A DNA stretch of 64,000 nucleotides from the NCBI GenBank assembly GCA_038087875.1, contig CM075989.1, positions 21,454,001-21,518,000 of the forward strand. The letters are read 5' to 3'. The notes under the pieces are model-generated. The model was given only the letters and a program-made list of their open reading frames with translations, made no database searches and was not told where the DNA came from. The position numbers were made by a program, and so were the translations under genes. This document shows, piece by piece, positions 367 through 62,807 of this stretch. How positions within the stretch are numbered: the stretch's first letter is position 1; each line of letters opens with the position of its first letter. The stretch is from Malacoraja senta (lineage: Eukaryota).

Positions 367-625
367 ATAGGCACAAAAACGCTGGAGTAACTCAGCGGGA
401 CAGGCAGCATCTCTGGAGAGAAGGAATGGGTGACGTTTCGGGTCGAGACCCTTCTTCAGATCTGTACTTCCTCCAGCATTTTGTGTCTTCTTCAGTCTGA
501 AGAGGGGTCTCGACCCGAAAGGTCACCCATTCCTTCTCTCCAGAGATGCTGCCTGTCCTGTTGAGTTACTCCAGCATTTTGTCTCTATCTTCGATTTAAA
601 CCAGCATCTGCAGTTCCTTCCTACA
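367..625. mobile_element. Penelope-like 3'-end unit as an inverted pair, with two hammerhead-like cores
   Basis: Core on - strand 432-459, core on + strand 497-524; 14-bp TSD CCTTTAAGGTGGGG at 353-366 and 626-639. Confidence 0.85.
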
Positions 626-689
626 CCTTTAAGGTGGGGTGCACCTGATATTGTCCGCACTGATGCTGGTGTTTATGATTGTGTACTTA

Positions 690-960
690 CAAACCAGAGA
701 GCAGTACCTCTATCTACCATCTTCCTCTACCTCTAGAAGATATACTATCTACCTCTTTGGTGACCCTCGGACTATCCTTGATTGCACTTTGCTGGCGTTA
801 CCTTGCGCTAAACGTTATTCCCCGATATGTATCCGCACACTGTAAATGGACCGATTGTGATCATGTATTGTCTTTCCGCTGACTGGTTAGCACGCAACAG
901 AAAGCTCTTCACTGTACCTCGATACACGTGACAATAAACTGAAGTGAAACTAAACTGAAA
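690..960 (+). mobile_element. Rex1/Babar-type LINE 3' UTR fragment
   Basis: Ends CACTGTACCTCGATACACGTGACAATAAAC plus a short-repeat tail; the same sequence recurs at 5305-5795 (interrupted) and 36620-36660. Confidence 0.6.
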
Positions 961-1053
961 TGCATGTCGTAATTGCCTACTGAGTAATCTACTTCTCAAA
1001 GCCTCCTTCCCAAGGCAACATATTTGGTAACAGGGGTAATGATCCACACCTTC

Positions 1054-1256
1054 CGAGGTATAAAAAATGCTGGAGAAACTCAGCGGGTGAGGCGGCATCT
1101 AGGGAGCGAAGGACTAGGTGACGTTTCGGGTCGAGACCCTTCTTCAGAAACGTCACCTATTCCTTCGCTCCATAGATGCTGCCTCACCCGCTGAGTTTCT
1201 CCAGCATTTCTGACTACCTTCGATTATTCCAACGTCTGCGGTTCTTTCTTAAACAC
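1054..1256. mobile_element. Palindromic PLE 3'-end unit with consensus hammerhead-like core (1120-1147, - strand)
   Basis: Mirror-image arms; 12-bp TSD ATCCACACCTTC at 1042-1053 and 1257-1268. Confidence 0.85.
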
Positions 1257-2856
1257 ATCCACACCTTCTGGTTCAGCTGGAATTGGCAGTATACATATTT
1301 AAAACATAACTTTACAGAGGGCTCTTTTAAAAAAAAAAGTGGATATTATGCAAATTATTCAAATTGGCCCGCTAACAAAGCATGCCTGTGTTGTTTTAGT
1401 TGTAATGCTTATGTGATCTGTGTAGACAGCCGTGAAGCAAATGAAGAAGGAACTAACAGCGTCAGAAAAGGGATCAGACTGTTCCAGCTGACACTAACCT
1501 AATCTTCTAGGACCCATTAAAATGCCGTTTGAAAGCATTACCTACAATAACATCCTTGAATATCACTGGTTTTATTTGCAGTATCAAGCATTTCATTTCA
1601 TGCTCCATTAATGACGAGATCAGAGTTTGAAAGCAGCTAAACATCTCAACAAGTACCTGGACTAAATAGACAATTAACTTCTGAGACAAAACGGCCAATT
1701 AACTGCAAAGGTAAGGCTGTCGTCCTCCACTCAAATTAAATTTCTTTGCTAACGGCAGCTCATCTCAGCCCAACCATTAAGGGTATTTAGACAACCGCAA
1801 GTGTGTGCTGAGCAGAATTAGAAGAAAATAGAATTAAAAGGAAAAAAGGCGGACTGAAATTCCCCAATGCACGCTTTTCTGGAATCTTTTCCTTTAGTCT
1901 GCAGGTTTAGTGTTGTGCGGAAGGCAAAATAAAGACTTTAATCCATATACAGTGCGTGGAGCCCTTGACGTTATTCAAATTAATGAACTGTTTGAAAATA
2001 AATGGAGATAAGAAATATCACTGGGGTTTCTTAACAATGTACATGTCCCAAGAAATACAATTTAAAAAAAAGTACAGCTCTGTAAACAAAGGAATGGTGT
2101 GTTAAAGATTTTGTATATCGCCCCCTGCTCCAACTGAATGCCAAATAAATGCGTGATTCCCACAACCCAACCCCTTAGTTGAAATATTGCAAATAGTTCT
2201 CCCTTCACTGTGAAGCTGAGTTAAAACAAATAACGGCAGGAAATGCTAACAAGAACCATGTTATGTCAATATTGGTTGAAACTTTTGTCCCTGTAAATGG
2301 GATAGCCACCCAGATTGCTGGCTTTTTTTTTCTAGTTTGTAGGGTAGATGGAGTTCCCCCATTTACAATCTTCGCAAAATTGTTCTCAGGAAATTGTTCA
2401 GAAAGTGGGAAAAAAAAGTGGAGATAATGTTGGGTTGGGTTAAATTAAATATTCACCCATTCATCCAATATTTTTTTAATGTCTAAAGAAGGGTCCCGAC
2501 CAGAAACGTTACCCATCCTTTATCTCCAGAGATGCTGCCTGACCCGCTGAGTTACTCCAGCACTTTGTGTCTATCTTCGGTAGAAACCAGCGCCTGCAGT
2601 TCCTTTCTGCACATTATTTTATTGAGACCTGGGGAATCATGGGTTGGCGTTAGAGATACAGCATGGAAACAGGCCCTTCGGCCCATCGAGTTCATGCCGC
2701 ACATCGATCATCTGTTCACGTTAGTTCGATGTTGTCCCACTTTCTCTAGGTGGCACAGTCCTCACGACATGTCCTATCTATGTGGAGTTTGCACGTCCTC
2801 TACAGATTAGTTTATTGTCATGTGTACCAAGGTACAGTGAAAACCATTCTCCCACC

Positions 2857-3150
2857 ATGGCAGCATGGTGGCGTACTGATGAAGTCGCTGCCAGGGACCC
2901 AGGTTCGATCCTGACTACGGGTGCTGCCTGGTACAGAGCTTATACATTCTCCCTGTGACCGCGTGGGTTTTCTCCGGGTGCTCCGGTTTCCTCCCACACT
3001 CCCAAAACCTGTAGGTTTGTAGGTTAATTGGCCTCTGTAAAATTGCCCCTAGCGTGTAGGATAGAACTGGTGTACGGGTGATTGCTTATCGGCTCTGATA
3101 TGATGAGCCAAAGGGCCTGTTTCCACGCTGTATCTCCAACCTAAACTAAA
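2857..3150 (+). mobile_element. tRNA-derived V-SINE (HE1/SacSINE-like)
   Basis: B-box GGTTCGATCC, central GGGTTTTCTCCGGGTGCTCCGGTTTCCTCCCACA block, GGGCCTGTTTCC tail ending in (CTAAA)n. Confidence 0.85.
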
Positions 3151-3559
3151 CATCTCACTCAAAGAAGTGGGGGTGGGAGTGTGGGGGGGGGGGGGGGGGT
3201 TGAAGAGTTGGAGGCAAGAAAGGATCAAGACTAATTTCTCGCCTCCAGCCCTTCGTCCCACCCCCCTGCTGTCAGTCTGAAGAAGGGTCCAGACCTAAAA
3301 CATCATTTAGCCTATTTCTCCAAAGATGCTGCCTTGCGGGTCAGGCAACATCTTTGGAGAAAAGGAAAATGATGTTTTACAGAAGCCAATTACTCCAGCA
3401 GTTTGTATCCATCTTTCACATGTCTGGGGTACACAGAAATGCTGGAGAAACTCAGCGGGTGCAGAGCATCTATGGAGCGAAGGAGATAGGCAACGTTTCG
3501 GGCCAAAACCCTTCTTCAGACTGTGAAAATCCTTTCACATGTCTGGCTTTGTCCTGCCG

Positions 3560-3755
3560 CCCTCCCCCCCCTCCCCCCGCCCTCCACACCTCCTTCCCCT
3601 ACCCCTCTCCACCCCTCCACCCCCTCCCCCCCTCTCTTCCACCTTTCTCTCCCCCCCCCCTCCACCCCTCCTTCCCCTCCCCCCTCCCCTCTCCACCCCT
3701 CCACCCCCTCCCCCCCTCCCCACCTCTCTTCTACCTTTCTCTCCCCCCTCCCCCT
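3560..3755. repeat. C/T-rich low-complexity tract
   Basis: Near-pure pyrimidine repeats; source of spurious Pro/Gly-rich ORFs. Confidence 0.9.
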
Positions 3756-4525
3756 ACAATCACCCTGAAGCAGGATCCTGATCTGAAACCTTTCCTCCAG
3801 ACATCGAGACACAAGGAACTGCAGATGCTGGTTTACAAAAAAAAAAGACACAACGTTCTGGAGTAACTGAGCGGTTGAGACGGCATCTTTAAAGAACATG
3901 GATAGGCAACATGTTGGGTTGGGACATCCCTTCAGCCCATCCATGTTCTCCATAGATGCCGCCTGGCCTGCTGGGTTCCTCCAGCACTTTGATCTTTGCT
4001 GCAGATCCAAGCATCTGCAGTTCCTTGTGTCCACCTTTTACACGAGCCTCCCTATTTTATGGCTGCACTCGAGTTCTGGCGTTCAGAGTTTCTTGCACAC
4101 GAACCTCCAGCGCCTTCTCTGCTGCAGCTTTTGCCAAGTTTTCTCTCTTTAAATACAACTCTGTTCTTTTGTTCTCCCTTCCAAGATGAACAACTTCACG
4201 GTTTCCCACATTCCACTCCAGTTTCCAACTTTATTTTGCCAGCTCACCTAACCTGCCAATCTCTCTCTCTGTAAACCAGTTGTATCCTCCTCTTGGCTTG
4301 CCTTCCTACTTAATTCTGTGTCATCTTCAAACTTGGACTGCCGTACATTCATTTCCTTTCCTCCTCCACATCAGTGCCTCTTATAAACAGTTGCGATCCC
4401 AGCTTTGATCCTTGTGGCAACCCACTACTCACAAGTTGCCAACTTGAAAATGACCTCTTCATCCATATTCACTGCTTCCTGTTTGTTAGTCAATCCTGAT
4501 AGTTTGGTTCAGTTTATTTTAGTTT

Positions 4526-4865
4526 ACTCCCTCAACATCAGGAATATTTTTTCTGCATCCAGCCTGCCTCTAAGAGCTATCTCTCTTGAATACATCCAGT
4601 GAATTGGCCTCCACTGCCTTCTGCGACAGAGAATTCCACAGATTCACAACTCTCTGGGTAAAAAGGTTTTTCCTCATCTCAGTCCTAAATGGCCCACCCC
4701 TTATTCTTAAACTGTGACCCCTGGTTCTGGACTCCCCCAACATCAGGAATATTTTTCCTGCATCCAGCCTGTCCAATCCGTTCAGAATTTTATATGTTTC
4801 TGCAAGATACCCCCTCATCCTTCTGGATTCCCGTGAATACAAGCCCAGTCGACCCATTCTTGAAA
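4526..4865 (-). mobile_element. CR1 LINE ORF2 C-terminal fragment
   Basis: ORF 4570..4908 contains ESRTRGHSLRI...FTQRVVNLWNSL, the typical CR1 C-terminus. Confidence 0.9.
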
Positions 4866-5500
4866 TATTCCCACTGTGTTTTGGTGAGGAGTTGCAAGAT
4901 TCCAACACAATGGTGACAAAGGAAGATGGTGTGAAAACTTGGAAACTCCCATTTAACTGTCCAATCTGTAACCATTGATAAGAACATGAGAACTAGAATT
5001 TGGAGGCAGCCTGGAACCTGCTCCACTGTTCTGTTGGCCATGACTGATCTTTTACCTCAATGCCACTTTAGATTTTAGACTTTAGAGATACAGCGCGGAA
5101 ACAACCCCTTTGGCCCACTGAGTCCGCGCCGACCAGCGATCCCTGTACACTAGCACTAACCTACACACTAGGGACAACATACAATGTTACCAAAGCCAAT
5201 GAACCTACACACCTGTATGTTTGTGGAGTGTACACCAGGGGCAATATACAGACGCCAATCAATCTCGTACATCTTTGAGTTGCTGGACAAAACACGGAGG
5301 AAACTGAACCATCGTACCACAACTAGAGAGCAGTCGTGATCTACTGTCTACCTCATTAGAGACCCTCGGACTGTCTTTGATCGGACTTTACTGGCTTTAC
5401 CTTGCACTAAACATTAATCCATCATCATGTATCCATACACTGTAAATGGCTCGATTTCAATCATGTGTTCTCTTTCCGCTGACTGGTTATGGACAATAGA

Positions 5501-5628
5501 CTGAAGAAGGGTTTCGGCCCGAAACGTTGCCTATTTGCTTCGCTCCATAGATACTGCCGCACCCGCTGAGTTTCTCCAGCAATTTTGTCTACCTTCGATT
5601 TTCCAGCATCTGCAGTTCCTTCTTGAAC
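5501..5628 (+). mobile_element. Minimal 128-bp PLE unit: hammerhead-like core plus tail
   Basis: Starts at CTGAAGAAGGGTTTCGGCCCGAAACGTT; 12-bp TSD ATGGACAATAGA at 5489-5500 and 5629-5640. Confidence 0.85.
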
Positions 5629-6724
5629 ATGGACAATAGACAATAGGTGCAGGAGTAGGCCATTCTGCCCCTCGAGCCAGCACCGCCATTCAATGTGATC
5701 GTGGCTGATCATCCACCATCAGTACCCCTTCATCCACAACTAGCACGTGACAAATGCTTTTTACTGTACGTGTGACGATCAACTAAACTAATTAATTAAC
5801 TAAGCCCGCGTGGTCGCAGGCAGAACATGCAAACTCCACACAGAGAGCACCCAAGGTCAGGATTGAACCTGGGTCTCTGGCGCTGTGAGGCAGCAACCGC
5901 ATCGATCGCATTCTTGAGAAGATGTTTGATTGATGATCGGAGAGGAGTTTTGCAGTAACTCGAAACCACTCCACGGAGAGTCTTTGGCGATCCCACAGCT
6001 TCACGATGAAAGCTGACCTTTGTAAATACCGTGATTGATAGAAAAAAGTGAAAAAGCAACAAGTTTAAATATCAAGTGTACAGCTGGCTTTAGAAGTGCT
6101 GCCTTTTTTAAACTGATTTAAAGAGTGTCAAAGGCTAATCTAAAGAACTCTCTGCAATTTCTGTATCCTTAAGTAACACAACAGATAATACATTCCATTC
6201 GTTGTCAGTCAGTCAAGCATCCTCAGGTTTATGATGGATTAAATGAAAAGTAAAAGCTTTTTTTAAATTATAACAATAGAATGACCATAAATCTTATAAA
6301 ATGTGCCTGCCATCGTGTCAGTTTAGTCTTTCTCTTCCCGTCCTAATTCAGGTTTTTTTAGGGGCTTTCAGCAAAGCAACCAATATCGTGAACATTTGCC
6401 AAAGAGTTTTGCTGGTTGGAATTAGAACCTAACTTGAGACTGTTCAAGTTCACTTCACTGTTAACTGCAGAGTCATCAGCTCATCAGAGTGCATGGGATT
6501 CGTAGACAAGTCTTGGAACTGAATGTGTAGGAAGGAAATGCAGATGCTGGTTGACACCAAAGATAGGAAACATCTCTGGAGAGAAGGAGTGGGTGACGTT
6601 TTTGGGACCCGAAACATCGCCCATTCCTTTTCTCCAGAGATGCTGCCTATCCTGCTGAGTTACTCCAGCACTTTGAATCTATCTTAGAACTAAATGATTC
6701 CGGGAATGATAAAATAGAAAAATG

Positions 6725-7140
6725 GAGTTGTCGTAGCGGTAGAGTTGCTGCCTTGCAGCGCCAGAGACCCAGGTTCGATCCCGACTACGGGTGCTGTCTG
6801 TACAGAGTTTGTACATTCTCCCAGTGATCGGCGTGGGCTTTCCAGGAGATCTTCGGTTTCCTCCCACACTCCAGAGACCTACAGGCTAGTAAGCGTAAGT
6901 GTAAAAAATAAATTTGTCCCGAGTGTGTGGCAGGAACGGGGTACTGATTGGGGATGATCAGCCATGATCACATTGAATGGCGGTGCTGGCTCGAAGGGCC
7001 GAATGGCCTGCTCCTGCACCTATTGTCTATTGTCTATTGTGTGTGTAGGATAGTGTTAATGTGCGGGGATCGCTGGTTGGTGCGGACTCGATGGGCCGAA
7101 TGGCCTGTTTCCGCGCTGTATCTATCTCTAAACTAAACCT
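6725..7140 (+). mobile_element. V-SINE interrupted by a CR1 3'-end fragment (about 6930-7040)
   Basis: SINE body stops at GAGTGTGT; CR1 3' UTR with (CTATTGT)n tail follows; SINE resumes GTGTGTAGGATAGTG. Confidence 0.85.
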
Positions 7141-7709
7141 GAGGTGGACATGGAGCTTCTTGGACAATTTATTTGGAAATCTAAGGGCGCAGCCATAGAG
7201 TTGGTGCCTTACAGTGCTGGAGACCAGGGTTCGATCCTGACTACGGGTGCTGCCTGCACGAAGTTTCTACATTCATCTATTCATACTAATTCTATGTTCT
7301 CCCATTTTTGTATTCAGTCTCTACACATAGAGTTAATTTGTTTAGTAGAGTAGAGTGTTAATTTGTTCATGATATATGTATTTTTACTTCTATTTATTTT
7401 TTACTGCACACTGAAATGGACACTGGTTGAGGAACGTATTTTTGTTTCCTCTGGGTATGCGAATACTCAGGAAATGACAATAAAGATATACAATAATATA
7501 CAATACAATACAATACAATTAGCGCAATTTTTTGTAGAGGCCAATTAACCCACAAACCTGCATGTCTTTGGGATGTGGGAGGAAATCGGAGCACCCAGAG
7601 GAAACCCACGTGGTCACGGGGAGAACGTACAAACTATGTACAGATAGCACCCGTAGTCAGGTTCGCCCCCGGTGCTGTGAGACAGTAACTCCACCTAATG
7701 TAGTACTAA

Positions 7710-7955
7710 AGTCAAAGGCAAAAGTCAAAGTCAATTTTATTCGTCACATGCTCCCGAAGGTGCAGTGAAATGAATTTGCCAGCAGCGATACACTTAAAAA
7801 CAACACACAACGCACAATAAGATTGAACACAAACATCCACCACAACATTCTTCACTGTGCAACAAAGTTCAGTCAGTCCTCCACCTTTGTTCACCTGTGG
7901 TCGGGGCCATGAACCCTCCGTAGTCGCCACTACGGACGGCCCGATGTACAGGCCC
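7710..7955 (-). mobile_element. Short non-autonomous retroelement with Rex1-like TGAC(G)AATAAA tail
   Basis: Shares AACATCCACCACA...TCACTGTG with copies at 36085-36365, 47740-47971 and (degenerate) 57911-58080. Confidence 0.6.
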
Positions 7956-8268
7956 TATAACAACATTTATAAGACATTTGGAGAGATACATTTGGAGAGG
8001 AATATGGGCTAAACGTGGGCAGGTGGGACGGGCCTAGATGGGGTATTTTCGTCAGCATGGTGACAAAATCTGAGAGGATAAATAAAAGAGAGTTGTAAGT
8101 GTGATAAAAGGGCCATTGCAGTTGCAGGACATTTCCCAGCACTTACCGTCTCTGCATTAATTGTTTTAGTATAACGTCTTGTGTTAGCCCAAAGGACATC
8201 ATTCCGATTCATTCACAGGTTGTTTTGTATTTCCGTTCTAAAGTTTAATGCAAACATGCAAATTAAGT

Positions 8269-8554
8269 TTACACCCCAGCGGTATGAACATTGACTTATC
8301 TAACTTCAAGTAGCCCTTGCCTTCCCTCTCTCTCCATCCCCTCCACCTTCCCAGTTCTCCCACCAGTCTGATTGCCTCCGACTACATTCTATCTCTGTCC
8401 TGCCCACCCACTCCCCTGATATCAGTCTGAAGAAGGGTCTTGACCCGAAACGTCACCCATTCCTTCGCTCCAGAAATGCTGCCTGTCCCGCTGAGCTACT
8501 CCAGCAGTTTGTGTCTATCTTCGATCTAAACCAGCATCTGCAGTTTTTTCCTAC
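8269..8554 (+). mobile_element. PLE 3' fragment: end of GIY-YIG ORF, 3' UTR, hammerhead-like core (8427-8454) and tail
   Basis: Encodes LHPSGMNIDLSNFK-stop; 15-bp TSD ACATGCAAATTAAGT at 8254-8268 and 8555-8569. Confidence 0.9.
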
Positions 8555-8599
8555 ACATGCAAATTAAGTCACAAGCTTGCTTGTAAGCTACGGGCTGAG

Positions 8600-9132
8600 A
8601 GAAATGCCTTTGGAGCCACACTTGGAGAACTATTTTCAGGTGTGGTCACCCTGCTATGAACAGTATGTCTTTAAGCTGGGAAGATTTACGAGGATGTTGC
8701 CGGGACTCGAGGGCCTGAGCGAGAGGGAGAGATTCAACGGGCTAAGACTTTATTCCTTGGAGCGCATGAGGCTCAGGGGTGACCTGATGGAGGTGCATAA
8801 AATCATGAGGGGAATGGATACGGTGAGTCTTTTACCCAGAGTAGGGGAATCAAGAACTAGAGGACATTGGATAAGGTGAGAGGGGAAAGATTTAATAGGA
8901 ACCTGAGCGGCAACTTTTTCACATAGAAGGTGATGGGTATATTATTAAACGAGCTGCCAGAGGAGGTTGTTGAGACAGATATTGTAACAACATTTAAAAG
9001 TCATTCGGACAGATACATGGATATGAAAGACTTAGAGGGATATGGGTCAAACGCAACCAAATGGGACTGATGCAAATTGGGTCAGCATGGTCATGTTGGG
9101 CTGAAAGGCCTTTTTCCGAGCTGTATGACTCT
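8600..9132 (+). mobile_element. Degenerate CR1/HER1 LINE 3' fragment
   Basis: ORF 8577..8879 PHLENYFQVWSP...RLRGDLMEVHKIM...SRTRGH; tail GGGCTGAAAGGCC...CTGTATGACTCT. Confidence 0.85.
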
Positions 9133-9461
9133 GTGAGACCCTTGGGCTGCAGAAGGGTCTCGATCCGAAACATCACCTATCCACGTTCTCCTGGGATGCT
9201 GCCTGACCCGCTGAGTCACTCCAGCACGTTGTATCATTGGGCTCAGACATTGGGCATGATATACTTTAAAAGGTAGAGTACATGTGCCGCTTAAAACAAT
9301 TTCAGCAGTCGACTGCCAATTCACCTTCATGCTGAGTGGTGTCAATGGCCATAAGTGACACGGTTATTGATTTTTGGCATCGGGCAGCTTTAACAGCGGT
9401 CAGAGTAATAACTGCGAATACAAGTGTAACAGTGTGGAAACAAGAGAAATACACACAACAA

Positions 9462-9750
9462 GGCAGCACAGTGGCACAGCGGTAGAGTTGCTGCCGCCTT
9501 GCAATGCCAGAGACCCGGGTTTGATCCTGACTCGGGATTGTTGCCCGTACGGAGTTTGTCCCCACGACCTTTCTCCGGGTGCTCCGGTTTCCTCCCACAC
9601 TCCAAAGACGTGTAGGTTAATTGACTTCGGTAAAATTGTAAATTGTCCCCAGCGTGTGGGAGAGTGTTAGTGTACGGGGTGATCGCTGGTCGGCACGGAC
9701 TAGGTGGGCCGAAGGGCCTGTTTCCGCGCTGTATGTCTAAGGACTAAAGA
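9462..9750 (+). mobile_element. Full-length V-SINE
   Basis: A-box TGGCACAGCGG, B-box-like GGTTTGATCC, central block, TGGGCCGAAGGGCCTGTTTCC tail. Confidence 0.9.
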
Positions 9751-10544
9751 CCGCATTTGGATTCTTGGTGCTAAGTTTTCAGTCAGCACCACAGGTCCAA
9801 GCCGACATCATCTAGTTTATCCCTTGACTTTCATTTTTATCTAAATGATGATAGCATTGTGTATCCAAGCCTCAAAGGTGATAGAGACGAGCTTTCACCT
9901 GGCTATGAGCCATTATCTACATTAGAATTCTTCTCTGTTTGTTCCAGACGTCATTTTCTTAATCTTAACAAAATCTATTGTAAGAGATAATGGAATGAAA
10001 TTCATTCAATTCACTCCTACATCCTGATCCCTTAGCCAAACGGATCAGTGATTCAATAGACATCCACAAGAATCACCGCTCCATGCAGTAATTTTATTCT
10101 GTTGCTTGAAATTGTCACTACCCTTCACAACACTTAATTAATTAAAAGAAATCTCCTCTAGTTTGAGTGATGAAGAATTCTGCAGTGGTTACTATGAACT
10201 TGACCTGTGATGCAGTTACAGACAGCAGCTCCTCTTTGCAGAGGGATGATGTGACTACTGCTGTGGCTGACACAATATGGGTGACAGTTTTAAATTGACC
10301 TCTTAGGGAGCTGCAGTGTGACCTCTAGAAAGATTGGCCACTTGACAGGATGATTCCTGCTCCTCGCTTGGCTCTTCAGGCATCATAATCTACCTCGCAT
10401 CCCTTTCTGCCGTTATGAATGTCAGTATAGCTCTAATAAGGGGGAGCAGTTTGAATAAAACATAGCGACGATGACTCATACACACCCCCCCACCCTTTCT
10501 CCCCTTACACAGACACTGCACAACACAAGTCTTTTTTAGTTTAG

Positions 10545-10749
10545 GAAGGAAACTGCAGGTGCAGGTTTAAACCGAAGAGAGACACCAAAAAGCTGGAGTA
10601 ACTCAGCGGGACAGGCAGCATCTCTGGAGAGAAGGAATGGGTGACGTTTCGGGTCGAGAAGAAGGGTCTCCACCTGAAACGTCACCCGTTCCTTCTCTCC
10701 AGAGATGCTGCCTGTCCCGCTGAGTTACTCCAGCTGTTTGTGTCTATCT
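10545..10749. mobile_element. Palindromic PLE 3'-end unit inserted at a SINE tail
   Basis: Inverted arms; 15-bp TSD TCTTTTTTAGTTTAG at 10530-10544 and 10750-10764. Confidence 0.85.
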
Positions 10750-10754
10750 TCTTT

Positions 10755-17528: not shown

Positions 17529-17529
17529 C

Positions 17530-22077: not shown

Positions 22078-22132
<55 letters not shown>

Positions 22133-52422: not shown

Positions 52423-53285
52423 TAACTCCAGCTTTTTGTGTCTACATGGTTGCAGGGAGGATACATGACATACAGTATTTATGCAAGGGCTGCAATAGTT
52501 TTCTTTGGAAGGGATATTTGATGTATTCATTTAATCACTGATAACCGGACAGATTTGTATTGTTTAATTTTAGAAACAATTGCCATTGTGAATTCTTAAA
52601 GACTTTATTATGTCCATTTCAATCACAATGTTATCAGCCTTTATAGACAAGGGGGAGACATAGAAGTTATGTGAAAATACTCTGAGTAAACATCTTTTGT
52701 CATGCTATTGTTGCGTTTGAACTTGTCAACTTCAGGACATGAGTTAAACATCAGCTGAAGTCATGGAGCTTTAAACACTAGAGGGAGAACTCGATTTAAC
52801 TGCACCTAGTCACTCTCCCCGTGATATCGACAGAAGCAATAGCAGCACCAGTGTAGCGAGAGGAACAGGCAACAGAGGATGGACACAAAAAGCTGGAGTA
52901 ACTCAGCCGGATCAAGCAGCATCTCTGGAGAAAGGGAATAGGTGTTGTTTCGGGTCGAGACCCTTCTACACACTGAGAGTCAGGGGAAAGGGAAACGAGA
53001 GATACTGACGGTGATGTGCAGAGGTATAGAACAAATGAATGAAAGGTATGCAAAAAGGTAGCGATGATACAGGCCATCATTGGATGTGGCCTAGGTGAAA
53101 ACGAGTTACAGACAATGAGACTCAACAAGACAACAGCTAATTTTCTGCAGCATGGTCTGATGATATTTGTTCCCAGGAGAATAGATCCTCTGTGGGCCAA
53201 TGTATTTCTGATGCGTAATAGAGTCCTTATTTAGATTACAACCCAGCCATATGAAGGTTGAATTCTCTAATTTGAGGTAACTTTT

Positions 53286-53870
53286 AATCATGGCTGATCT
53301 ATTTTTCCCTCTCAACCCCATTCTCCAGACTTCTCCCCGTAACCTTTGACACCCGTACTAATCAAAAACCTGTTAATCTCCGCTTTAACAAATTCCCAAT
53401 GACTTGATTTTCACAGCCGTCTGTGGCAATGAATTCCACAGATTCACCACCCTCTGGGTAAAGAAATTCCTCCTCACTTCTGTTCTGAAGTTACGTCCTT
53501 TTATTCTGAGAGTCTAACCTCTGGTTCTGGACTCTCACACTAGTGGAAACATCCTTTCCATGTCTACACGATCAAGGCCTTTAATTATCCAGGAGGTTTC
53601 AATGAGGTCCCCCCCTCATCCTTCTAAACTCCAGCGAGTACAGGTCCTGAGCCTTCAAACACTCCTCATACATTAATATATTATTCTCCACTGGACCCTC
53701 CGCAGAGCCAACTCATCCTTCCTCAAGAATGAACTCTGAAGAAGGGTCTCGAGCCGAAACGTCACCCATTCCTTCTCTCCAAAGATGCTGCCTATCTTCT
53801 ATTTAAACCAGCATCTGTGGTTCTTTCCTGCACATCCTTCCTCAGATATGGAACCCACGACTGCTCACAA
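53286..53870 (-). mobile_element. Old CR1 3' fragment with a nested PLE unit (53726-53832)
   Basis: 12-bp TSD CATCCTTCCTCA at 53714-53725 and 53833-53844. Confidence 0.8.
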
Positions 53871-54029
53871 TATGTGACCTCACCCAGCGCCTAATAAAGC
53901 CTTAGATTCACACTCAAGTCTCAAAGCAAGTCTCAAAACACAACTGCACACAAACACACACAACTTTAGGCTTGAGGCAACGGCACTAAAATTATGTTCT
54001 CTTAATGGATTATTTAATTTTAAACTTCT

Positions 54030-54325
54030 GACTTTAGACTTTAGAGAAACTGCGAGGAAACAGCCATTCGGCCCACCGAGTACGTGCCGACCAGCGATCC
54101 CTGCACAATAACACTCCCACACACAGGGGACAATTTATGATTTTACCAAAGCCAATTAAACTACAGACCTGCATGTGTTTGGAGTGTGGGAGGAAACTGC
54201 AGAACCCAGAGAAAACCCACGAGATCGCAGGGAGAACGGACAATACAAACTCCATACAGACAGCACCTATAGTCGGGATCGAACCTGGATCTCTGGCGCT
54301 GTAAGGCAGCAACTCTACCACTGCA
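54030..54325 (-). mobile_element. V-SINE
   Basis: Reverse complement of the consensus with (TCTAAAG)n tail. Confidence 0.85.
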
Positions 54326-55084
54326 ACTAGACACCGCCCTCACAACTACACACTTCACACATAACAAGTCTCTTCTAAATCGTTTGGCTGTTCTTTATTC
54401 TGATCGAGTTAGCGTTCCCAACTTTAAGCAATCTGAGGTATTTAGTAACAACACTGTGTTAGCCAATAAGTTAGAAGTGGAACAGTCTCTATGTTTATTT
54501 GGAATCAATCTATGCACAGCATATAACCAATTTGACTGGGAAATTGAGACACTGCAGATATTGGGATCCTGAGCAAAAAACAAGCTGCTGGAGTAACTCA
54601 GCAGGTTAGACAAGATGTCGGGGGTGTCAGGGGTTATGGGGAGAAAGCTGGAGAATTGGGTTAGGAGGGAGAGATAGATCAGCCATGATTGAATGGCAGA
54701 GTAGACTTGATGGGCCGAATGGCCTATTTCTGCTCCTGTCACTTGTGAACATCTACGAAGGAATGGCGTTTTTGGACAGTTAACTTTCCTCAGATTCTTC
54801 AGATACTTTCAGAAAATAGAATTTCTGCGAAGAGTGAAGAAAATATGTACTCAAGAGAGAGAGTTGGATATAGCTCAGAGGGCTAACGGAATCAAGGGAT
54901 ATGGGGAGAAAGCAGGAACGGGGTACGGATTCTGGATGATCTGCCGTGATCACATTGAATGGCGGTGCTGACTCGAAGGGCCGAATGGCCTACTCCTGCA
55001 CCTATTTTCTATGTTTCTATGTTTCTAAAATAAAACCTGCAACTTCTCCCAATAAAACTGCCATATTTCCCCCTTAGTTACACG

Positions 55085-55215
55085 AAAACAAGCAGTGTTG
55101 CAACACGACAACATGCTTTCTATGGCGCATTCGTAGAAGTTAGTAAGAGTCAATGGAGACTTGCCGCACTTCCTCCGTCTCCAGAGGAAGTGGAGGCATT
55201 GGTGTGTCTTCTTGC
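55085..55215 (-). mobile_element. Rex1/Babar ORF fragment
   Basis: KKTHQCLHFLWRRRKCGKSPLTLTNFYECAIESMLSCC resembles the Rex1 KAHQRLYFLRRL...LTNFYRCTIESIL motif. Confidence 0.75.
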
Positions 55216-55286
55216 CTGTCAGGAATTGGGAAGAAGCTCCCAGTCCTCCCCCCTCACATTTCCTTTCAAACACTCAGTGGTTAAGT

Positions 55287-55314
55287 CTGAAGAAGGGTCT
55301 CGACCCGAAACGTC
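55287..55314 (+). ncRNA. Consensus hammerhead-like core in a PLE tail (55283-55415)
   Basis: Exact CTGAAGAAGGGTCTCGACCCGAAACGTC. Confidence 0.6.
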
Positions 55315-55744
55315 ACCCATTCCTTCTCTCCAGAGATGCTGCCTGTCCCGCTGAGTTACTCCAGCATTTTGTGTCTATCTTCGGTTTAAACCAGCATCTG
55401 CAGATCCTTCCCACACAATCACCGGCTGTTTTGCAGTTTCATCATGAGATCACTTCTTTCTTCATATTTCAGGCTTTGTGGAACAAATTACAGGCAACTT
55501 TGAGCCCTGTAAGCTTTTCGAAGCCTCTTGACACCAATTGCCTCTAAGTGTTCTTTCATTATGAGGTCTATCACTAATTTTGAAGGGAAGCTCCACATCA
55601 TCGCATTGCACCACCTTAGGCAGGCCTGAGAACAGAGTTAACTAATTCTATGTGAGCCCAGCCCCAAGTCATTAGTCTGTGCTTGGGCACGTTAAGTTTG
55701 GACAGTGATTTAGTCTGGTTGTGTTGACAAGTTTCTATATCCTA

Positions 55745-56895
55745 CAGCAGGCAGTGAAGAAAGCGAATGGCATGTTAACCATATAACCATATAACCATTA
55801 CAGCACGGAAACAGGCCATCTCGGCCCTTCAAGTCCGTGCCGAACACTTTTTTTTTTTCCCCCTTCTTTCTTCTTACTTCCCCCTAGTCCCATCTACCTG
55901 CACTCAGACCATATCCCTCCATTCCTTTCCCGTCCATATACCCATCCAATCTATTTTTAAAGGATAAAATCAAACCTGCCTCCACCACTTCCACTTGAAG
56001 CTCATTCCACACAGCTACCACTCTCTGAGTAAAGAAGTTCCCCCTAATGTTACCCCTAAACTTCTGTCCCTTAATTCTCAACTCATGTCCCCTTGTTTGA
56101 ATCTTCCCGGCGCTCAATGGGAAAAGCTTATCCACGTCAACTCTGTCTAACCCGCTCATCATTTTAAAGACCTCTATCAAGTCCCCCCTTAACCTTCTGC
56201 GCTCCAAAGAATAAAGACCTAACTTGTTCAACCTTTCTCTGTAACTTAGTTGCTGAAACCCAGGCCTTCATAACCAGGGGAGTTGAGTATAGGAGCAAAG
56301 AGGTCCTTCTGCAGTTGTATAGGGCCCTAGTGAGACCACACCTGGAGTATTGTGTGCAGTTTTGGGCCCCTAATTTGAGGAAGGACATTCTTGCTATTGA
56401 GGGAGTGCAGCGTAGGTTTACAAGGTTAATTCCCGGGATGGCGGGACTGTCATATGCTGAGAGAATGGAGCGGCTGGGCTTGTACACTCTGGAGTTTAGA
56501 AGGATGAGAGGGAATCTTATTGAAGCATAAAAGATTATTAAGGATTTGGACACGGTGGAGGCAGGAAACATGTTCCCGATGTTGGGGGAGTCCAGAACCA
56601 GGGGCCACAGTTTAAGAATAAGGGGTAAGCCATTTAGAACAGAGACGAGGAAACACTTTTTCTCACAGAGAGTGGTGCGTCTGTGGAATTCTCTGCCTCA
56701 GAGGGCGGTGGAGACAGGTTCTCTGGATACTTTCAAGAGAGAGCTAGATAGGGCTCTTAAAAATAGTGGAGTCAGGGGGAGAAGGCAGGAATGGGGTACT
56801 GATTTGGGATGATCAGCCATGATCACACTGAATGGCGGTGCTGGATCGAAGGGCCGAATGGCCTACTCCTGCACCTATTGTCTATTATCTATTGT
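55745..56895 (+). mobile_element. CR1 3' fragment interrupted by an opposite-strand CR1 (55776-56264)
   Basis: GGCATGTT|...|GGCCTTCATAAC rejoins the ORF2 motif KKANGMLAFI. Confidence 0.88.
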
Positions 56896-58080
56896 TCCCA
56901 ATTTTTGAAAATGATTCAATTGAAAACATGAAAACAATTGAAAAAGACATCGGTTTTTCACGCATTACTGCCTCTAGTGTCTTGATAGAAGTTTATTAAT
57001 CTCATTTTTATTGGATCTGGTTATTCTTGGTGGAAACATTAGAACGAGCATAATCGTAAAAGCCTTTTGGTTTTATTTTTGCAAACCTTATTGTACAACA
57101 AAATTCTGTCAATTGTTGCCAGGAGATAAAGTAGGATAAAAATCCATTGGAAATTTGGACAGAGGAATGACAAATGGAGTTTAATCCAGATAAATGTGAT
57201 GATGATGAAGGGTCTCGCCCTGAAACATCACCGATTCCTTCTCTCCAGAGCTCCTGCCTGACCCATTGAATTACTCCAGCATTTTGTGTCAATTCTCAAA
57301 CGTGAGATAATGCCTTTTGGGGAAGTCATATTCATGGAAATGATTCCAGGAATATTCCTTGAATGATTCCTTGAAATGATTCGAGGAAAGGATGCAGTAA
57401 ATGGCAGCACCCTACGGAGCATTGATGTATAGAGGAACCATGGTGTCATGTTTACAGAGGAACCATGGAGTGCGAGTCCAGAGCTCCACAAAAGGAGCAA
57501 CACAAGTGGATAGGTCGTAAAGAAGGCGTAGTACATGCTTGTCTTTTATTTAGATGGGAGACAGAGTATAAAAGTTTGTAAGTCATGTTGCAGGTGTATT
57601 AAGCTTTGGTTAGGCCATGTTTGTGAGATTGTGTGCAGTGGTGGTCACACCACATAAAGGATGTGAGGGATTTGAAGAAGGTGTACAAGAGCTACACCAC
57701 GGCACTGCCTGGGTTTGAATGTATCAGCTACACAGAGAGATTGGACCAACTTAGATCATTTGCACTGGAACATGGGAGGCTGAGGGGCCAAAACAAAAAC
57801 AGCAGTAAAGATTGTAAAATGTCCCTAGGGTGTAGGATAGTGCTTGTGTACGGGGATCGCTGGTTGGCTCAGACTCAGTAGGCCTAAAGGCCTATTCCTG
57901 CACTGTATCCCAAGTTCAAGTTCAAGTTTATTGTCACATGCAACTCGGTACAGTGATATTTATGTTACCATGCAGCCATACAAGTAAAGAGAACACAATA
58001 CACAATAGAATTTAACATAAACATCTACCTCAATGAAATCAGCATTCTTCACTGTGATGGAAGGCAGTAAAGTTCAGTCA

Positions 58081-59899
58081 TCTATATTATATTAAATCTC
58101 TGTGGCTGCCTGACTTGTGGCTGCCTGACTTGTGGCTGCCTGACTTGTGTCTGCCATCCGCCTGACTTGTGTCACAAATCCCCTTTGATACCGCCCTAGG
58201 CCCACACAGCACGCGGAAACGCCGATATTTTTTTACCATTTCTAAAGAGATTACATTTATCTTTACGAATAGACACTCCTGATTAAATTTGGTCGTGTTT
58301 GTGTACACTTTTTAAAATAAATTATTTCTCCGCCCCCCCCCACCCAAACATTTTAAAATGTTAAAAAAAACAGCTCTCAGCCATAGAATGTTAGTAAAGT
58401 TCCGTTGTGTGATGTCACAATGCCCGATGCTCACAGATGTCCAATCGGAATGGATCCATTTACATATGCCTTTGCAGCAGCCCCAGCCCCAGCCCCAGCC
58501 CCAGTCCCTCCCCCCCAATCCCACAGCCTGTGTCGAAGGGCGTCGTCACGTGTGTGGGAATAGAGAAAGAGGATTGGGGATGATAGGGAATGGGGAACAG
58601 ATGGACTGTCCTTACCCCTCCTACTTCAACTCTCCCTCCCCACTCTTCCCCCTCTCTCCTCTCCCCCTCCCTCCCCTCCCACCCCCTCTCTTCCCCATCC
58701 ACCACCCCCCCTCTTCAACCCCATCTCCCCCCACCCCCTTCCCCTCTCTTGCACCACTCCCCGCTACCCCTCTGCCTCTCACTCCCCACTCTTCCCCTCT
58801 CCCTCCCCCACCTCTCTCCCTCTCTTCCCCCTACTCCTCTCCCCTTCCCCTCATCCCCTCTCTCCACCTCTAACATCCACTCCCCCCCTCTCCCCCCTTC
58901 CTGCCCTCCCCGCTCTCCTCCCACTCCGCTCCCCCTTCCTCTCCCCCACCCTGCTCTCTTCTCCCTCACCAATCTCTCCCTTTTCCTCCTCCCCCTCTCC
59001 CCTCCCTCCCCCTCTCCTCTTCTCTCCCCACCCCGTCTCCCTCTCCCCTCTTCTCTCCCCACCCCGTCTTCCTCTCCCCCCCTCCCCCCGAGTGTGTTTG
59101 GGGGTGGTTAGTGTGAGTTTGGGGGGTGGTTAGTGTGAGTGTGATGCCGCAGCCCACCCCCCTCCCGCAAACGCGGGTTGGGAAAACAGCCCGCAAACAG
59201 TCTCTCTGTCTTTAAGACGGAACTGCAGATGCTGGAAAATCGAAGGTACACAAAAAAAACCTGTATATCCTCAGCGGGTGCAGCAGCATCTATGGATCGA
59301 AGGAAAAAGGCAACGTTTCGGTAGAAAACCCGTCTGAGGATGGGCTTCGGCCCAAAGCGTTGCCTATTTCCTTCGCTCCATATATGCTGCTGCACCCGCT
59401 GTGTTTCTCCAGCTTTTTTTTGTGTACCAGTCTCTGTCTCTCCCCTCTCTCTCTCTCTCTCTCTCTGCCCTTCTCTCTTCACAGCCCGCGGCTCGACTCA
59501 TGCACGCCCGCTCCAAACCCCCCCCTTCACCTCTCTCCCCATCCTCTTTTTCCTCTCTCCACCCCTCTCCTCTCTCCCCCTTCCATTCCACCCTCCTCCT
59601 CCCCCTCTTCAAATTTTTTTTTTCTAACATTAAATTTTCGCTCTGCCCCAACCCCTCTAGACGCATCTGAGAGGGGAAGGCTATTCGTCAGTGGATAGGG
59701 TGGAGATGGGATAAAAGAAGCAAATTAAAAAATTAAAATAATATCAAGAGGTGTGATGAGTGTGTGTGTTTGTGGGTGCCGGATTCCGTGCTTTGGAGGA
59801 AAGGGGGTGATTAGTGTGACGCCACAGCCTCCCTCCCCCCCCCCTCCCCCGCAAACGCACGTTCAGTGTCCAGACCCAACGGGTCTGCACTTGGCCTAG
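58081..59899 (+). mobile_element. Non-autonomous Helitron
   Basis: A|TCTATATTA 5' end; hairpin CAGACCC-AAC-GGGTCTG (59871-59887) 8 nt before the terminal CTAG|T; no TSD; 15-bp repeats near the 5' end. Confidence 0.8.
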
Positions 59900-60084
59900 T
59901 CTAAACTAAAACTAAACTACATTATATCACTCTCAGCAGTGAGTCTTTCTTCTTGTCTTCTCATCATATCTGTCCCAGCCCTCCAGTGTCCAATATTTAG
60001 AGACCACCTATTCTACTTTGCTGTTGATGTAGAGGAAGGTTTCTTCCACAATTCAAAGAGGGACTAACACATTATGACTGCCTA

Positions 60085-60395
60085 CCTTTAGTCTTTAGCG
60101 ATACAGCGCGGAAACAGGCCCTCCGGCCCACTGAGTGCGCACCGATAAGCGATCACCCCTTACACTCACACTGTCCTACAAACTAGGGACAATTTCACAA
60201 TTTCACCAAAGCCAATTAACCTACAAGCCTGGCACGTCTTTGGAGCGTGGGGGGGGAAACCGGAGCATCCGTAGAAATCCCATGCGGCCATGGGGAGAAC
60301 GTACAACCACCGTACATACAGCACCCGAAGTCAGGATCGAACCCGGTTTGCTGGCGCTGTGAGGCAGCAACTCTACCGCTGTGCCACTGTAACGC
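60085..60395 (-). mobile_element. Full-length V-SINE
   Basis: Head TGGCACAGCGGTAGAG, B-box GGTTCGATCC, tail. Confidence 0.88.
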
Positions 60396-62807
60396 CATTT
60401 TTTCTTTTAAATGAAAAAAACTCTAAAGCACCTTTTAACTGTCTTTCAAATACAAGACAAGACTGTGACGTACATGTCATGTTGTCACTTGCGGGCGGAG
60501 CAACAAGGCAAATTCCTTGTATGTGAATACTTGGCCAATAAACTTATTACTTCATTCAATGCCCTACCCAGGCCGCTAATTCTGTGGCAGGTTACTAAAT
60601 CAGCTCATAAAACGCTTCTTGACCTTCAAAGAGCCTGTAATTTAGCTAAGGTGAGATCAAAGGATTACTGGAACTCAGTGTTTAACTGACTGCCTCACAG
60701 AGGTCATCACACAATATCCAAACTGTGCAGGATAGTTTCTCACCAGCCTATTCTGTGTTGCACCTGGCAGGGTATATTGAACTTTAGGTAGACAAAAGTG
60801 CTGGAGAAACTCAGCGGGTGTGGCAGCATCTATGGAGCGAAGGAAATATGCCACCTTTTTGGGCAGAAACCCTTCTAAGCAGTTTATTGTGCTTTAACTC
60901 TCTCTTTTGGCTTGAAGCGGCATTACCCTGGGAGAGTTTGTCGGAAGGAAGGAACTGCAGATGCTGGTTTGAACCGAAGATAGACACAACATGCTGGAGT
61001 AACTCAGCGGGACAGGCAGCATCTCTGGAGGGAAGGAATGGGTAACATTTCAGGTCGAGTCCCTTCTGCACACTGGAAACATCACCCATTCCTTCTATCC
61101 AGAGATGCTGCCTGTCCCGCTGAGTCACTCCAACATTTTGTGTATCTTCCCCAGGGAGAATAATGCTACAAATGGTTTCTTTCATCGATTCATTGGATAA
61201 TCATACTGCCGCCCAGAGTGGTCTGAGTTTGGAGTTTGGTTCGGGTATGCGCCCACCTGTAACGTAAGAGTCCAAAATCTGAGTGTGTTTTTCTTTGCCA
61301 ATTGAAACTGAAAAAAGCAGGAAGCTCGACAGAAGGCGTGAAGCTACTTATAACTTCAATCCTGCCGCCAGCCATTGGAACACTTTGTGTTTGTGTTCGT
61401 GCGCTCTTGGGCAGATCTCTGCTTTCTCCGAACTGCACAACGAGTGTAACTTCACACTGCCAATTCATGCCCAACGCAAAAGCAGGTATTGTGTTCAAAT
61501 GAAACCTGCCATAAACTGCAGAGCGAGCAGTGCGGTTTTTGTAGACAAACAAAGTGCAGGTCCTCACTTCATTCCCTGCTGTTGGCGTCCAAGGCGTATC
61601 GTGGTCCTATAAGCTGCTTAAGTAGTTTAAGGAAGATAGACACAAAATGCTGGGGTAACTCGGCGGGTCAGGCAGCATCTCTGAGAAAAAGGATGGGTGA
61701 CGTTTAGCGATGAACAGCTAACAACGAACCATTCTACCTTTCCATTATTAGCATCTAATTTTATCTGTGGTTTTCACACCTTACCCTTCCATACCTCTAG
61801 GCTCCCTCTCCCTGATTCTGAGTCTGAAAAAGGGTCTTGACCCGAAATGTCAACCATTCCTTCTCTCCAGAGATGCTGCCTGTCCCGCTGAGTTACTCCA
61901 GCTTTTTTGTGTTTTTCTTCGGTTTAAACCAGCATCTGCAGTTCCTTCCTATATACTAATCTCAATGCAGGCAGGCATGCTAGTGAACAAGGAGTGGTTT
62001 ACCAAATCGCTATACCATATGTGTAACATAGATAGGCTGTTTGCTTTAGACTCTGTCCAATGTCCATCTCACTTCAATCAGTGATGAAGTGGAAAGAGTA
62101 CCAGTGATGAAGTGAAAAGAGTACCATTGCCAAATCTCCTAGTAAATGTACATACTGTTACATCATTTCCATGGGTGATCACAATGCAGGCATGTTCTTA
62201 GGTTTCAGACGTATCAGAGTTCAAACCAAACCAAACCACACCAACCTAAAATAATCTCAACTCAACTCAACTCAACTCAAATGAAATACCCCAACTAAAA
62301 TGTGTTTTGCTTTAAAGGTACACCACTGAAAATTTTAACTCTCTTTGCTCTTAAAACGAGCTGTACATTGTTACATTGATCTTCATCTAGATGTGTTTGT
62401 TACCAATTAAAACCTGCATCTTAAAATCTTTATTCAGCTGTTTATCATTTTGCCAACTTTGATCATGCACATTGTGTTATTTTCTGCGTAAACCACTTCA
62501 CAGGCCCGTCAGCTCCCACAGAATGAGGTTTAACACAAGCATCCAGCTTAATCTTCAGTCTGGTATTCAACATGCAAGCTGCTGCATTATGACCCTTTAT
62601 TTGTCATTTATATCACTGGGCTGCTTGGAATTGACTTTGGTGTTTTGGATGAGTGCTTTGTATCTCTCACAGGTAAGTAATGCAGGAATACTCTTTCTTT
62701 TTTCAATGTTGAACCATATTATCCTGCAATTGAGCTCAGTGGCTATGCTCAGCAGCGACCATCTCGGGATGAAGATGATTTTTCATTTAATGCTGTCATC
62801 GTGGAAT

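What the first reader, a model, noticed from the sequence alone, without database searches (positions are those of the whole stretch)
367..61950. Abundant hammerhead-ribozyme-bearing mini-retroelements derived from a Penelope-like element
Seen: a ~130-260 bp repeat recurs roughly 30 or more times (by eye) and carries CTGANGA-A-GGGTC-TC-GACCC-GAAA-CG-TC. Exact copies lie at 432-459(-), 1120-1147(-), 14263-14290(+) and 55287-55314(+). Variants keep stem II paired: GGGTT/GGCCC at 5501, GGGCT/GGCCC at 59334. Longer copies (8269-8554, 14925-15318) place the motif just downstream of a GIY-YIG ORF stop. Established: CUGANGA and GAAA...UH form the hammerhead core, and PLEs carry minimal type I hammerheads whose stem III is reduced to a palindrome (here ACGT) and that cleave as dimers. 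Inference: this is a high-copy family of ribozyme-containing, SINE/retrozyme-like units in an elasmobranch genome; if the window is intronic it seeds potential cleavage sites on both strands. Caveats: the consensus stem I is only 2 bp (CAGT vs ACC), and many copies lost G12 through CpG decay, so most may be inactive.
Basis: partly seen in the sequence, partly recalled or inferred. Interest (0 to 1): 0.8.

Follow-up and report, generated by a model that had tools for sequence, protein, structure and literature searches.

The report
Ribozyme-bearing stubs of Penelope jumping gene
The short repeat is the cut-off end of a known type of jumping gene (a Penelope-like element) whose end carries a minimal self-cleaving RNA motif; an estimated 0.9 million such stubs fill about 4.5% of this genome, and most are likely inert.

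Summary
The window has 62 pieces; 12 keep a strict minimal hammerhead and 0 appear in shuffles. One 31-mer occurs exactly 14,101 times in the genome, and sampling gives about 0.9 million pieces (4.5% of bases).

They are not a SINE or retrozyme family. They are 5'-truncated ends of a Neptune-type Penelope-like element (PLE). Longer copies run through the 3' UTR into a GIY-YIG/RT frame, and downstream into the ORF start. Copies carry 9-20 bp target-site duplications and end at two sites (~+95, ~+128), the known PLE 'tail'. None of 25 duplication-defined 5' ends lies at the cleavage site; 16 lie just 5' of the core. G12 decays at least as fast as other CpGs. RNA from a relative shows both strands equally and no cleavage ends.

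Minimal hammerheads in PLE repeats, mostly as solo copies, were described in 2014, and this scan noted them before in another genome. What this adds is scale and insertion anatomy: 5' ends pile up at the ribozyme border (possibly the RNA start), and head-to-head pairs mostly join one long and one short arm (48 of 63).

The parts
353..639 (.). Head-to-head pair: short arm 363-460(-) and long arm 493-626(+), flanked by a 14-bp target-site duplication (353, 626)
432..459 (-). Exact minimal hammerhead core (CUGANGA, bulged A, 4-bp stem II, GAAA, CG palindrome, UC)
1042..1268 (.). Head-to-head pair 1061-1148(-) / 1128-1253(+) joined by microhomology in the core; 12-bp duplication at 1042 and 1257
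3413..3546 (-). Solo short stub (U17/G1.1 variant) 3431-3523 with a 15-bp duplication
5489..5641 (+). Solo stub with tail, starting at the core (U17/G1.1 variant); 13-bp duplication at 5489 and 5629
8254..8569 (+). Longer stub: last ORF codons and stop, 3' UTR, hammerhead at 8427-8454, stem-loop, tail; 15-bp duplication at 8254 and 8555
10530..10764 (.). Head-to-head pair 10540-10659(-, long) / 10658-10752(+, short) with a 15-bp duplication
14260..14363 (+). Stub with exact core; flanking sequence gives a 4-bp stem I, so it is the best monomer candidate in the window (predicted only)
14922..15318 (-). Longest copy in the window: 68 open codons of the PLE endonuclease C-terminus (15115-15318), stop, 3' UTR, hammerhead at 14986-15013
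   Evidence: too short for a Pfam hit
18287..18471 (.). Head-to-head pair 18303-18429(-) / 18414-18460(+) with a 14-bp duplication
21126..21877 (-). Two longer-UTR copies in tandem, each with ORF end, UTR and core (21511-21604, 21126-21237)
28681..29240 (.). Long-UTR copy (-) interrupted by an inserted head-to-head pair (28939-29103)
33432..33945 (-). ORF end and long-UTR copy with a damaged core, followed by a second stub
43186..43578 (+). ORF end, long UTR and stub with a deletion in the core
55284..55415 (+). Solo stub with exact core (55287-55314), starting at about -3, with tail
59211..59418 (.). Head-to-head pair of the U17/G1.1 variant; the + arm has lost G12
197..61952 (.). All 62 pieces of the unit in the window

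Best explanation
The repeats are 5'-truncated end fragments (pseudo-LTR stubs) of a Neptune-type Penelope-like retrotransposon, likely inserted one by one by the element's own endonuclease and reverse transcriptase, and the hammerhead rides along as part of that end. Shown: the order ORF end - 3' UTR - hammerhead - stem-loop - tail - ORF start; target-site duplications; two preferred 3' ends about 35 nt apart; 5' ends that cluster just before the core and not at the cleavage site; decay after insertion. Inferred: the protein primes reverse transcription at two internal sites on uncleaved RNA, as shown in vitro for the anole PLE. The many ~100-135 bp stubs arise because those sites lie only ~100-135 nt from a stopping point at the ribozyme's 5' border, most likely the RNA's start (about 50%; a structural roadblock is the alternative). 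Head-to-head pairs arise when both nicked strands are extended, one from each site, and the two cDNAs join by microhomology. The ribozyme sequence was likely kept by selection in the active parent only; it would need dimerisation or protein help to cleave, and solo stubs are likely inert.
For: Parent element: broken copies give DKG-like, YIDD RT, C-x4-C-x2-C linker and CxxC-containing GIY-YIG motifs; weak Pfam hits RVT_1 E=2e-4 and GIY-YIG E=5e-3, both under the curated cut-offs. The unit continues downstream into the ORF start, with the ATG 162-165 nt after C3 in 10 of 14 listed copies. Continuum: 5' ends of 27 ORF-end hits spread evenly from -289 to -18 of the stop; 19 long copies extend about 330 to 990 nt upstream. 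ORF-linked members: 5/38, 13/90, 3/16, 9/47, 1/67 and 0/25 per cluster, plus 4 protein-level hits in the two old clusters pooled. Duplications: 21 of 236 solo copies (control 0.9%); 25 of 193 in the wider scan (control 0.7%) and 24 of 77 pairs (control 0.5%). 3' ends are bimodal: 131 short, 111 long, 42 other of 284 unpaired. Pairs: 48 of 63 classifiable are long+short against 50% expected, p=1.7e-5. 5' ends: 104 of 232 at -19..+4, 9 of 232 at +25..+31; stop rate 2.4%/nt there against 0.3-1.1%/nt in neighbouring bins; 16 of 25 duplication-defined ends at -29..+2, none at +3 or beyond. G12 mismatch 31% (34/108) against 17% (40/232) at other CpGs. RNA depth 2816 vs 2832 on the two strands, with 90% of reads running into unrelated sequence.
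Against: No intact full-length parent was found; all long copies inspected are broken, and the searches score only the 40 best candidates. Non-CpG core positions are slightly more conserved than the flank (4.4% vs 6.2%, p=0.03); ascertainment, base composition and subfamily mixing could explain this but were not ruled out. The oldest cluster had 0 of 25 ORF links at DNA level. The RNA-start idea has no direct evidence: no pile of read starts and an inconclusive cap-G test. Only about 13% of solo copies show a detectable duplication.
Confidence: 0.85

Rival explanations
1. The ~100-135 bp unit is an independent non-autonomous, SINE-like element: stubs are transcribed from an internal promoter and remobilised by the PLE protein.
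For: A sharp 5' border with an initiator-like TCAGT (consensus recalled, not tested), discrete unit lengths, very high copy number, a conserved downstream stem, and a recurrent internal duplication seen in 124 RNA reads and in DNA.
Against: Clusters contain ORF-linked members in similar proportion, 13-19% in the four young ones. Copies that include the ORF start stop at the same border, 8 of 14, so the border belongs to the parent's template. Stubs lack the sequence downstream of the priming sites, which the anole PLE needs in vitro (PMC11167929). No strand-biased transcript of the unit.
Confidence: 0.1
2. The unit is a retrozyme: tandem hammerhead units cleave to unit-length RNA, circularise and are reverse-transcribed.
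For: 35 same-strand neighbours within 400 bp among 439 pieces and natural dimers that include the ORF start. A preprint reports tandem retrozymes in one chondrichthyan.
Against: Neighbour spacings scatter from 45 to 448 bp with no fixed period. Tandem Repeats Finder lists no array of this unit. No excess of ends at the cleavage site. The hammerhead is minimal, not canonical, and monomers are not predicted to fold as hammerheads.
Confidence: 0.04
3. The 5' pile-up is a reverse-transcriptase roadblock or microhomology hotspot (near-palindromes at the core border and in stem II), not the RNA start. This is a variant of the best explanation.
For: Junctions of inverted pairs often use these palindromes. 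Ends spread over about 20 nt, not one base. About 40% of non-inverted copies that reach the core read through into the UTR (45 of 108). In several inspected loci the G before AGTCTGA belongs to the target duplication.
Against: A roadblock should stop RT on the 3' side of the structure, yet the stop rate at +5..+31 is low, 0.63%/nt. G:A before position -3 is 948:706 against 172:387 at a control position, still about 1.9-fold after background correction.
Confidence: 0.4

Closest known systems
Minimal hammerheads (min-HHR) in pLTRs of metazoan PLEs (Cervera and De la Pena 2014, PMC4209133; parts 1-2 of 4 read, 2 supplement files searched, 1 not searchable)
   Same: Type I core, bulged base after A9, G10.1-C11.1 pair, palindromic 15.2-16.2, location in the pLTR, mostly solo copies 'probably related to truncated PLEs'. 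The 2-bp stem I resembles D. virilis Penelope.
   Different: Stem II is 4 bp, not 7-8. Estimated 100,000-150,000 intact cores here against about 4,000 (coelacanth) and 9,000 (Xenopus). No shark or skate term in the supplement files searched.
PAc, Poseidon PLE of the green anole (Frangieh et al. 2024, PMC11167929; parts 1-2 of 4 read)
   Same: Two internal priming sites a little over 100 nt past the hammerhead that define the 'tail'; both strands extended; ribozyme dispensable for insertion; no RNA-seq ends at the cleavage site.
   Different: This element has the Neptune-type linker, and its ATG lies 162-165 nt after the core, not in stem II. Nothing was tested biochemically here.
Neptune clade of endonuclease-bearing PLEs (Craig et al. 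2021, PMC8557442; Arkhipova et al. 2013, PMC3846280; passages read)
   Same: CX2-5CxxC linker, CCHH-type GIY-YIG, heavy 5' truncation, head-to-head inverted copies with the tail on one end, short target-site duplications.
   Different: Very high share of minimal stubs. Clade assigned by motifs, not by a tree.
Non-LTR retrozymes (PMC7229834, passages; bioRxiv 10.64898/2026.07.22.740005, parts 1-3 of 5 read, supplements not seen)
   Same: Hammerhead-bearing sequence related to PLE pLTRs.
   Different: Those are tandem repeats, with canonical ribozymes and circular RNAs in the cases described in PMC7229834. These are dispersed stubs and inverted pairs with a minimal core.

Membership tests
PLE minimal hammerhead | CUGANGA, GAAA and UH core with stem II and palindromic 15.2-16.2 | tested here: met
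   12 of 62 window pieces strict, 10 with the palindrome; core letters modal in the young clusters, with G12 most often A in the oldest cluster
PLE minimal hammerhead | Located in the pLTR between ORF stop and ORF start | tested here: met
   Stop 110-114 nt upstream in ten copies of one subfamily, farther in others; ATG 162-165 nt downstream
PLE minimal hammerhead | Stem I of 4-5 bp | tested here: not met
   2 bp in copies that keep their own upstream sequence; a 2-bp stem I is described for D. virilis Penelope
PLE minimal hammerhead | Covariation supporting the stems | tested here: inconclusive
   89% of cells paired, one-sided U-A to U-G changes, but not above shuffles in 24 copies
PLE minimal hammerhead | Self-cleavage as a dimer or with protein help | not testable with these tools
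   Needs an in vitro assay; monomer folds are not hammerhead-like
Neptune-type PLE | RT followed by C-terminal GIY-YIG with CCHH motif and CX2-5CxxC linker | tested here: met
   Motifs read in natural broken copies; weak Pfam hits
Neptune-type PLE | Phylogenetic placement in Neptune rather than Nematis | not tested
   No tree was built
Neptune-type PLE | 5' truncation, inverted copies, optional 30-40 bp tail, target-site duplication | tested here: met
Non-LTR retrozyme | Tandem arrays of fixed unit length | tested here: not met
   No array; neighbour spacings 45-448 bp
Non-LTR retrozyme | Unit ends at the cleavage site | tested here: not met
   0 of 25 duplication-defined 5' ends there; 9 of 232 alignment-defined ends
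Non-LTR retrozyme | Abundant circular RNA | not testable with these tools
   Only a polyA library from a relative was available
SINE | Head derived from a pol III RNA | tested here: not met
   No tRNA gene or Rfam match in the window; sequence upstream of the unit is PLE UTR or host DNA
SINE | Master lineages independent of the autonomous partner | tested here: inconclusive
   ORF-linked members in 5 of 6 clusters at DNA level and in the two old clusters pooled at protein level; no genome-wide tree

The most novel reading that the evidence does not exclude
PLE RNA starts a few bases before the hammerhead, and a protein dimer primes at two sites 95 and 128 nt downstream, one per DNA strand. The element therefore mass-produces 'strong-stop' stubs and asymmetric head-to-head pairs. 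About a million such events here form a fossil read-out of the unresolved PLE integration mechanism and leave on the order of 100,000 intact ribozyme cores, some of which could cleave host RNAs in trans or with PLE protein.
Probability: 0.35. Interest if true: 0.55.

Novelty: new member of a known kind. Interest (0 to 1): 0.33.

Why it matters
The motif and its dispersal as truncated PLE copies are in print, so the catch is right but not a new kind. Its value is as material. An estimated 4.5% of this genome is one PLE end, which automatic annotation could easily call a SINE. The copies give statistics on how PLEs integrate: two priming sites, one long and one short arm per inverted pair, a stop at the ribozyme's 5' border, and no use of cleaved RNA. 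These match and extend in vitro results on one lizard PLE and give testable predictions for a retrotransposon class whose cycle is still unresolved.

Tried and rejected
Splicing idea: a donor-like site near the ORF start joined to an acceptor-like site before the core, which would give tandem ribozymes. The genome holds only 2 exact junction matches, both in one locus, and 4 with one mismatch; rejected.
Coding of the hammerhead region in frame with the ORF: core-to-ATG distances of 162, 163, 164 and 165 nt break the frame; rejected.
A second cluster of 5' ends near the ORF stop: not seen.
Cap-templated G at the proposed RNA start: raw odds ratio 3.0, about 1.9 after background correction, confounded by microhomology; inconclusive.
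Covariation: not above shuffles.
Rfam, tRNA and PDB searches: nothing.
Search for an intact parent ORF: none among loci L001-L120.
No RNA holder was listed for the window stretch; contig runs X1, X2 and X6 may be DNA and were not used as expression evidence.
Host exons: 24 of 61 open frames were scanned and gave only LINE domains and one sub-threshold DUF hit, so the intron question is open.
Eight literature searches listed no paper whose title or abstract start describes this family; the library lacks most subscription papers and Repbase, where it may be catalogued.
Full report
Positions below are relative to C3 of CUGANGA (= 0). The predicted cleavage falls between +27 and +28.

Observation. 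The motif is at the stated places: 21 matches with up to 3 mismatches, 0 in 100 shuffles. A profile from 11 natural window copies finds 62 pieces in the window. Of these, 40 span the core, 12 keep every core base and a 4-bp stem II, and 10 also keep the CG palindrome; the strict pattern never appears in 50 shuffles. Rfam has no match. In the 1.94-Gb genome one 31-mer occurs exactly 14,101 times. Eighty 10-kb stretches at round-number positions on contigs C1-C19 held 377 pieces covering 4.5% of their bases, which scales to about 0.9 million pieces (bootstrap 0.77-1.07 million). Sixty of the 377 have a strict core and 42 also the palindrome, so roughly 100,000-150,000 genome-wide. The window is about twice as dense as average.

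The parent. The copy at 14922-15318(-) ends in 68 open codons typical of a PLE endonuclease. Walking upstream through the genome gave copies with the GIY-YIG motif and its internal CxxC, a C-x4-C-x2-C linker, a YIDD reverse transcriptase and a DKG-like motif. Pfam hits are weak (RVT_1 E=2e-4, GIY-YIG E=5e-3). Craig et al. (passages) give that linker as the mark of the Neptune and Nematis clades; I call it Neptune-type by motif and built no tree. The element spans roughly 3.5 kb. All long copies inspected are broken. Downstream of the unit the sequence continues into the ORF start, with the ATG 162-165 nt after C3 in 10 of 14 listed copies; the other four are farther off or nearer. So the unit is the pLTR junction: ORF stop, UTR, hammerhead, stem-loop, tail, ORF start.

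Stubs, not a separate family. 5' ends form a continuum: 27 ORF-end hits start from -289 to -18 of the stop with no cluster, and longer copies reach about -330 to -990. Clustering 283 of 439 pieces into six groups (4-20% divergence) gave ORF-linked members in 5/38, 13/90, 3/16, 9/47, 1/67 and 0/25. A protein-level search found 4 ORF-linked copies in the two old groups pooled. 3' ends fall at two sites, about +95 and +128: 131 short, 111 long and 42 other among 284 unpaired pieces. The long class is bounded by the model's end, but duplication-defined ends fall in the same two places. This is the 30-40 bp optional 'tail' of PLEs, which Frangieh et al. (parts 1-2 read) traced to two internal priming sites. 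Target-site duplications of 9-20 bp flank 21 of 236 solo copies (control 0.9%), 25 of 193 in a wider scan (control 0.7%) and 24 of 77 head-to-head pairs (control 0.5%), so these pairs are single insertions. Among 78 pairs, 63 could be classed, and 48 join one long and one short arm (50% expected, p=1.7e-5). Arkhipova et al. (passages) describe inverted pLTRs with the tail on one end. My inference is that the two DNA strands prime at the two sites.

Where copies begin. Of 232 pieces placed, 104 begin at -19..+4 and 9 at +25..+31 (alignment edges are fuzzy by several bases). Among 143 non-inverted pieces the stop rate is 2.4%/nt at -19..+4, against 0.63 at +5..+31, 1.1 at -49..-20 and 0.3-0.4 further up. 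Independently of alignment, 16 of 25 duplication-defined ends lie at -29..+2, 9 at -144..-530, and none at the cleavage site. Copies that include the ORF start stop at the same border in 8 of 14 cases. So cleaved RNA is not the template, in line with the anole result, and the parent's template has a stopping point just 5' of the core. The sequence there, TCAGT, resembles an initiator (recalled consensus). A cap should add a G: before position -3 the genome has G 948, A 706, T 566 and C 9231, against G 172 and A 387 at a control position. Background ratios are 1.13 and 0.71, and in several of 30 inspected loci the G is part of the duplication. The test is inconclusive; I put the RNA-start reading at about 50%.

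The ribozyme. The pattern fits Cervera and De la Pena's minimal hammerhead (parts 1-2 read): bulged base, G10.1-C11.1, palindromic 15.2-16.2, low in vitro activity, mostly solo copies attributed to truncated PLEs. Across clusters the non-CpG core letters stay modal. The variant with U17 and G1.1 keeps an allowed cleavage base and a U-G pair, which suggests selection in the active parents. The downstream stem-loop is about as well conserved, and covariation does not exceed shuffles. After insertion, G12 is changed in 34 of 108 copies against 40 of 232 other CpG sites. The non-CpG core shows 4.4% mismatch against 6.2% in the flank (p=0.03), a small difference against my reading that I could not separate from ascertainment. 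Stem I is at most 2 bp in 11 of 12 strict window copies, and predicted monomer folds pair the core with the pyrimidine run behind it; only 14263 shows some hammerhead-like pairing.

RNA. No RNA run of this genome was listed. A polyA run from a relative, laid at 80% likeness on a natural pLTR-ORF junction copy, gave 12,945 of 7.3 million records. Depth over the unit was 2816 and 2832 on the two strands, 90% of laid reads ran on into unrelated sequence, and no place showed many molecules beginning or ending. This fits passive transcription inside host RNAs. It is weak evidence on cleavage or start sites: a fragmented polyA library, 6% of the run, another species.

Comparison. It works like, and by the testable features is, a PLE pLTR minimal hammerhead in truncated copies. 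It fails the retrozyme tests of tandem arrays and ends at the cleavage site; retrozymes are described in PMC7229834 (passages) and in a 2026 preprint that sampled one chondrichthyan (parts 1-3; its supplements were not seen and may list related sequences). Eight paper searches did not list a description of this family, but Repbase and most subscription papers were not searched.

Verdict. A real, very abundant feature of a known kind. The SINE/retrozyme framing is not supported. Its scale and the insertion statistics are of moderate specialist interest.

Noticed in passing
window 45412-48679 (+): Long non-LTR retrotransposon copy: GDSL-esterase-type ORF1, then endonuclease and RT domains split over several frames; CR1/L2-like by recall.
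   Followed up: partly
window 21971-24245, 26094-26760, 27313-27862: Very long degenerate CA/TG microsatellite arrays, the first 2.3 kb, flanked by two near-identical PLE ORF-end fragments at ~21751-21877 and ~22704-22830.
   Followed up: no
window 106-210: A 12-bp tandem repeat (8.8 copies) that runs directly into a degenerate PLE stub at 197-262, possibly a minisatellite born from the stub's sequence just after the cleavage site.
   Followed up: no
window ~7520-7700 and ~15600-15800: A second abundant short repeat family, unrelated to the PLE unit, SINE-like by recall; ARAGORN calls no tRNA.
   Followed up: no
L132 ~3600-3850(-) in reverse-strand numbering, L319; RNA joint at L188 1458 to 1422: A recurrent ~66-bp internal tandem duplication (+20..+85) in an older subfamily, seen in 124 RNA reads and in genomic copies; could mark a small self-propagating sub-lineage or one expressed host transcript.
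   Followed up: partly
L031:1866-2189, L143:5379-5708, L167, L163: Natural dimers hammerhead - tail - ORF start - hammerhead with variable spacing (297-447 bp); candidates for dimeric cleavage assays.
   Followed up: partly
L320/L321, L160:7211-7256, L129:1004-1037: Short tandem duplications (33-45 bp) of just the hammerhead-bearing 5' end, placing two cores next to each other.
   Followed up: no
L188:1546-1961: RNA reads over the PLE ORF start are strand-biased (first mate on +, from about 2:1 to over 20:1), which in common stranded protocols would mean antisense RNA; library strandedness was not established.
   Followed up: no
L178-L184: Seven loci on different contigs share the same PLE ORF-start fragment, with near-identical flanks in the two printed, so they likely belong to a larger duplicated unit or another mobile element.
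   Followed up: no
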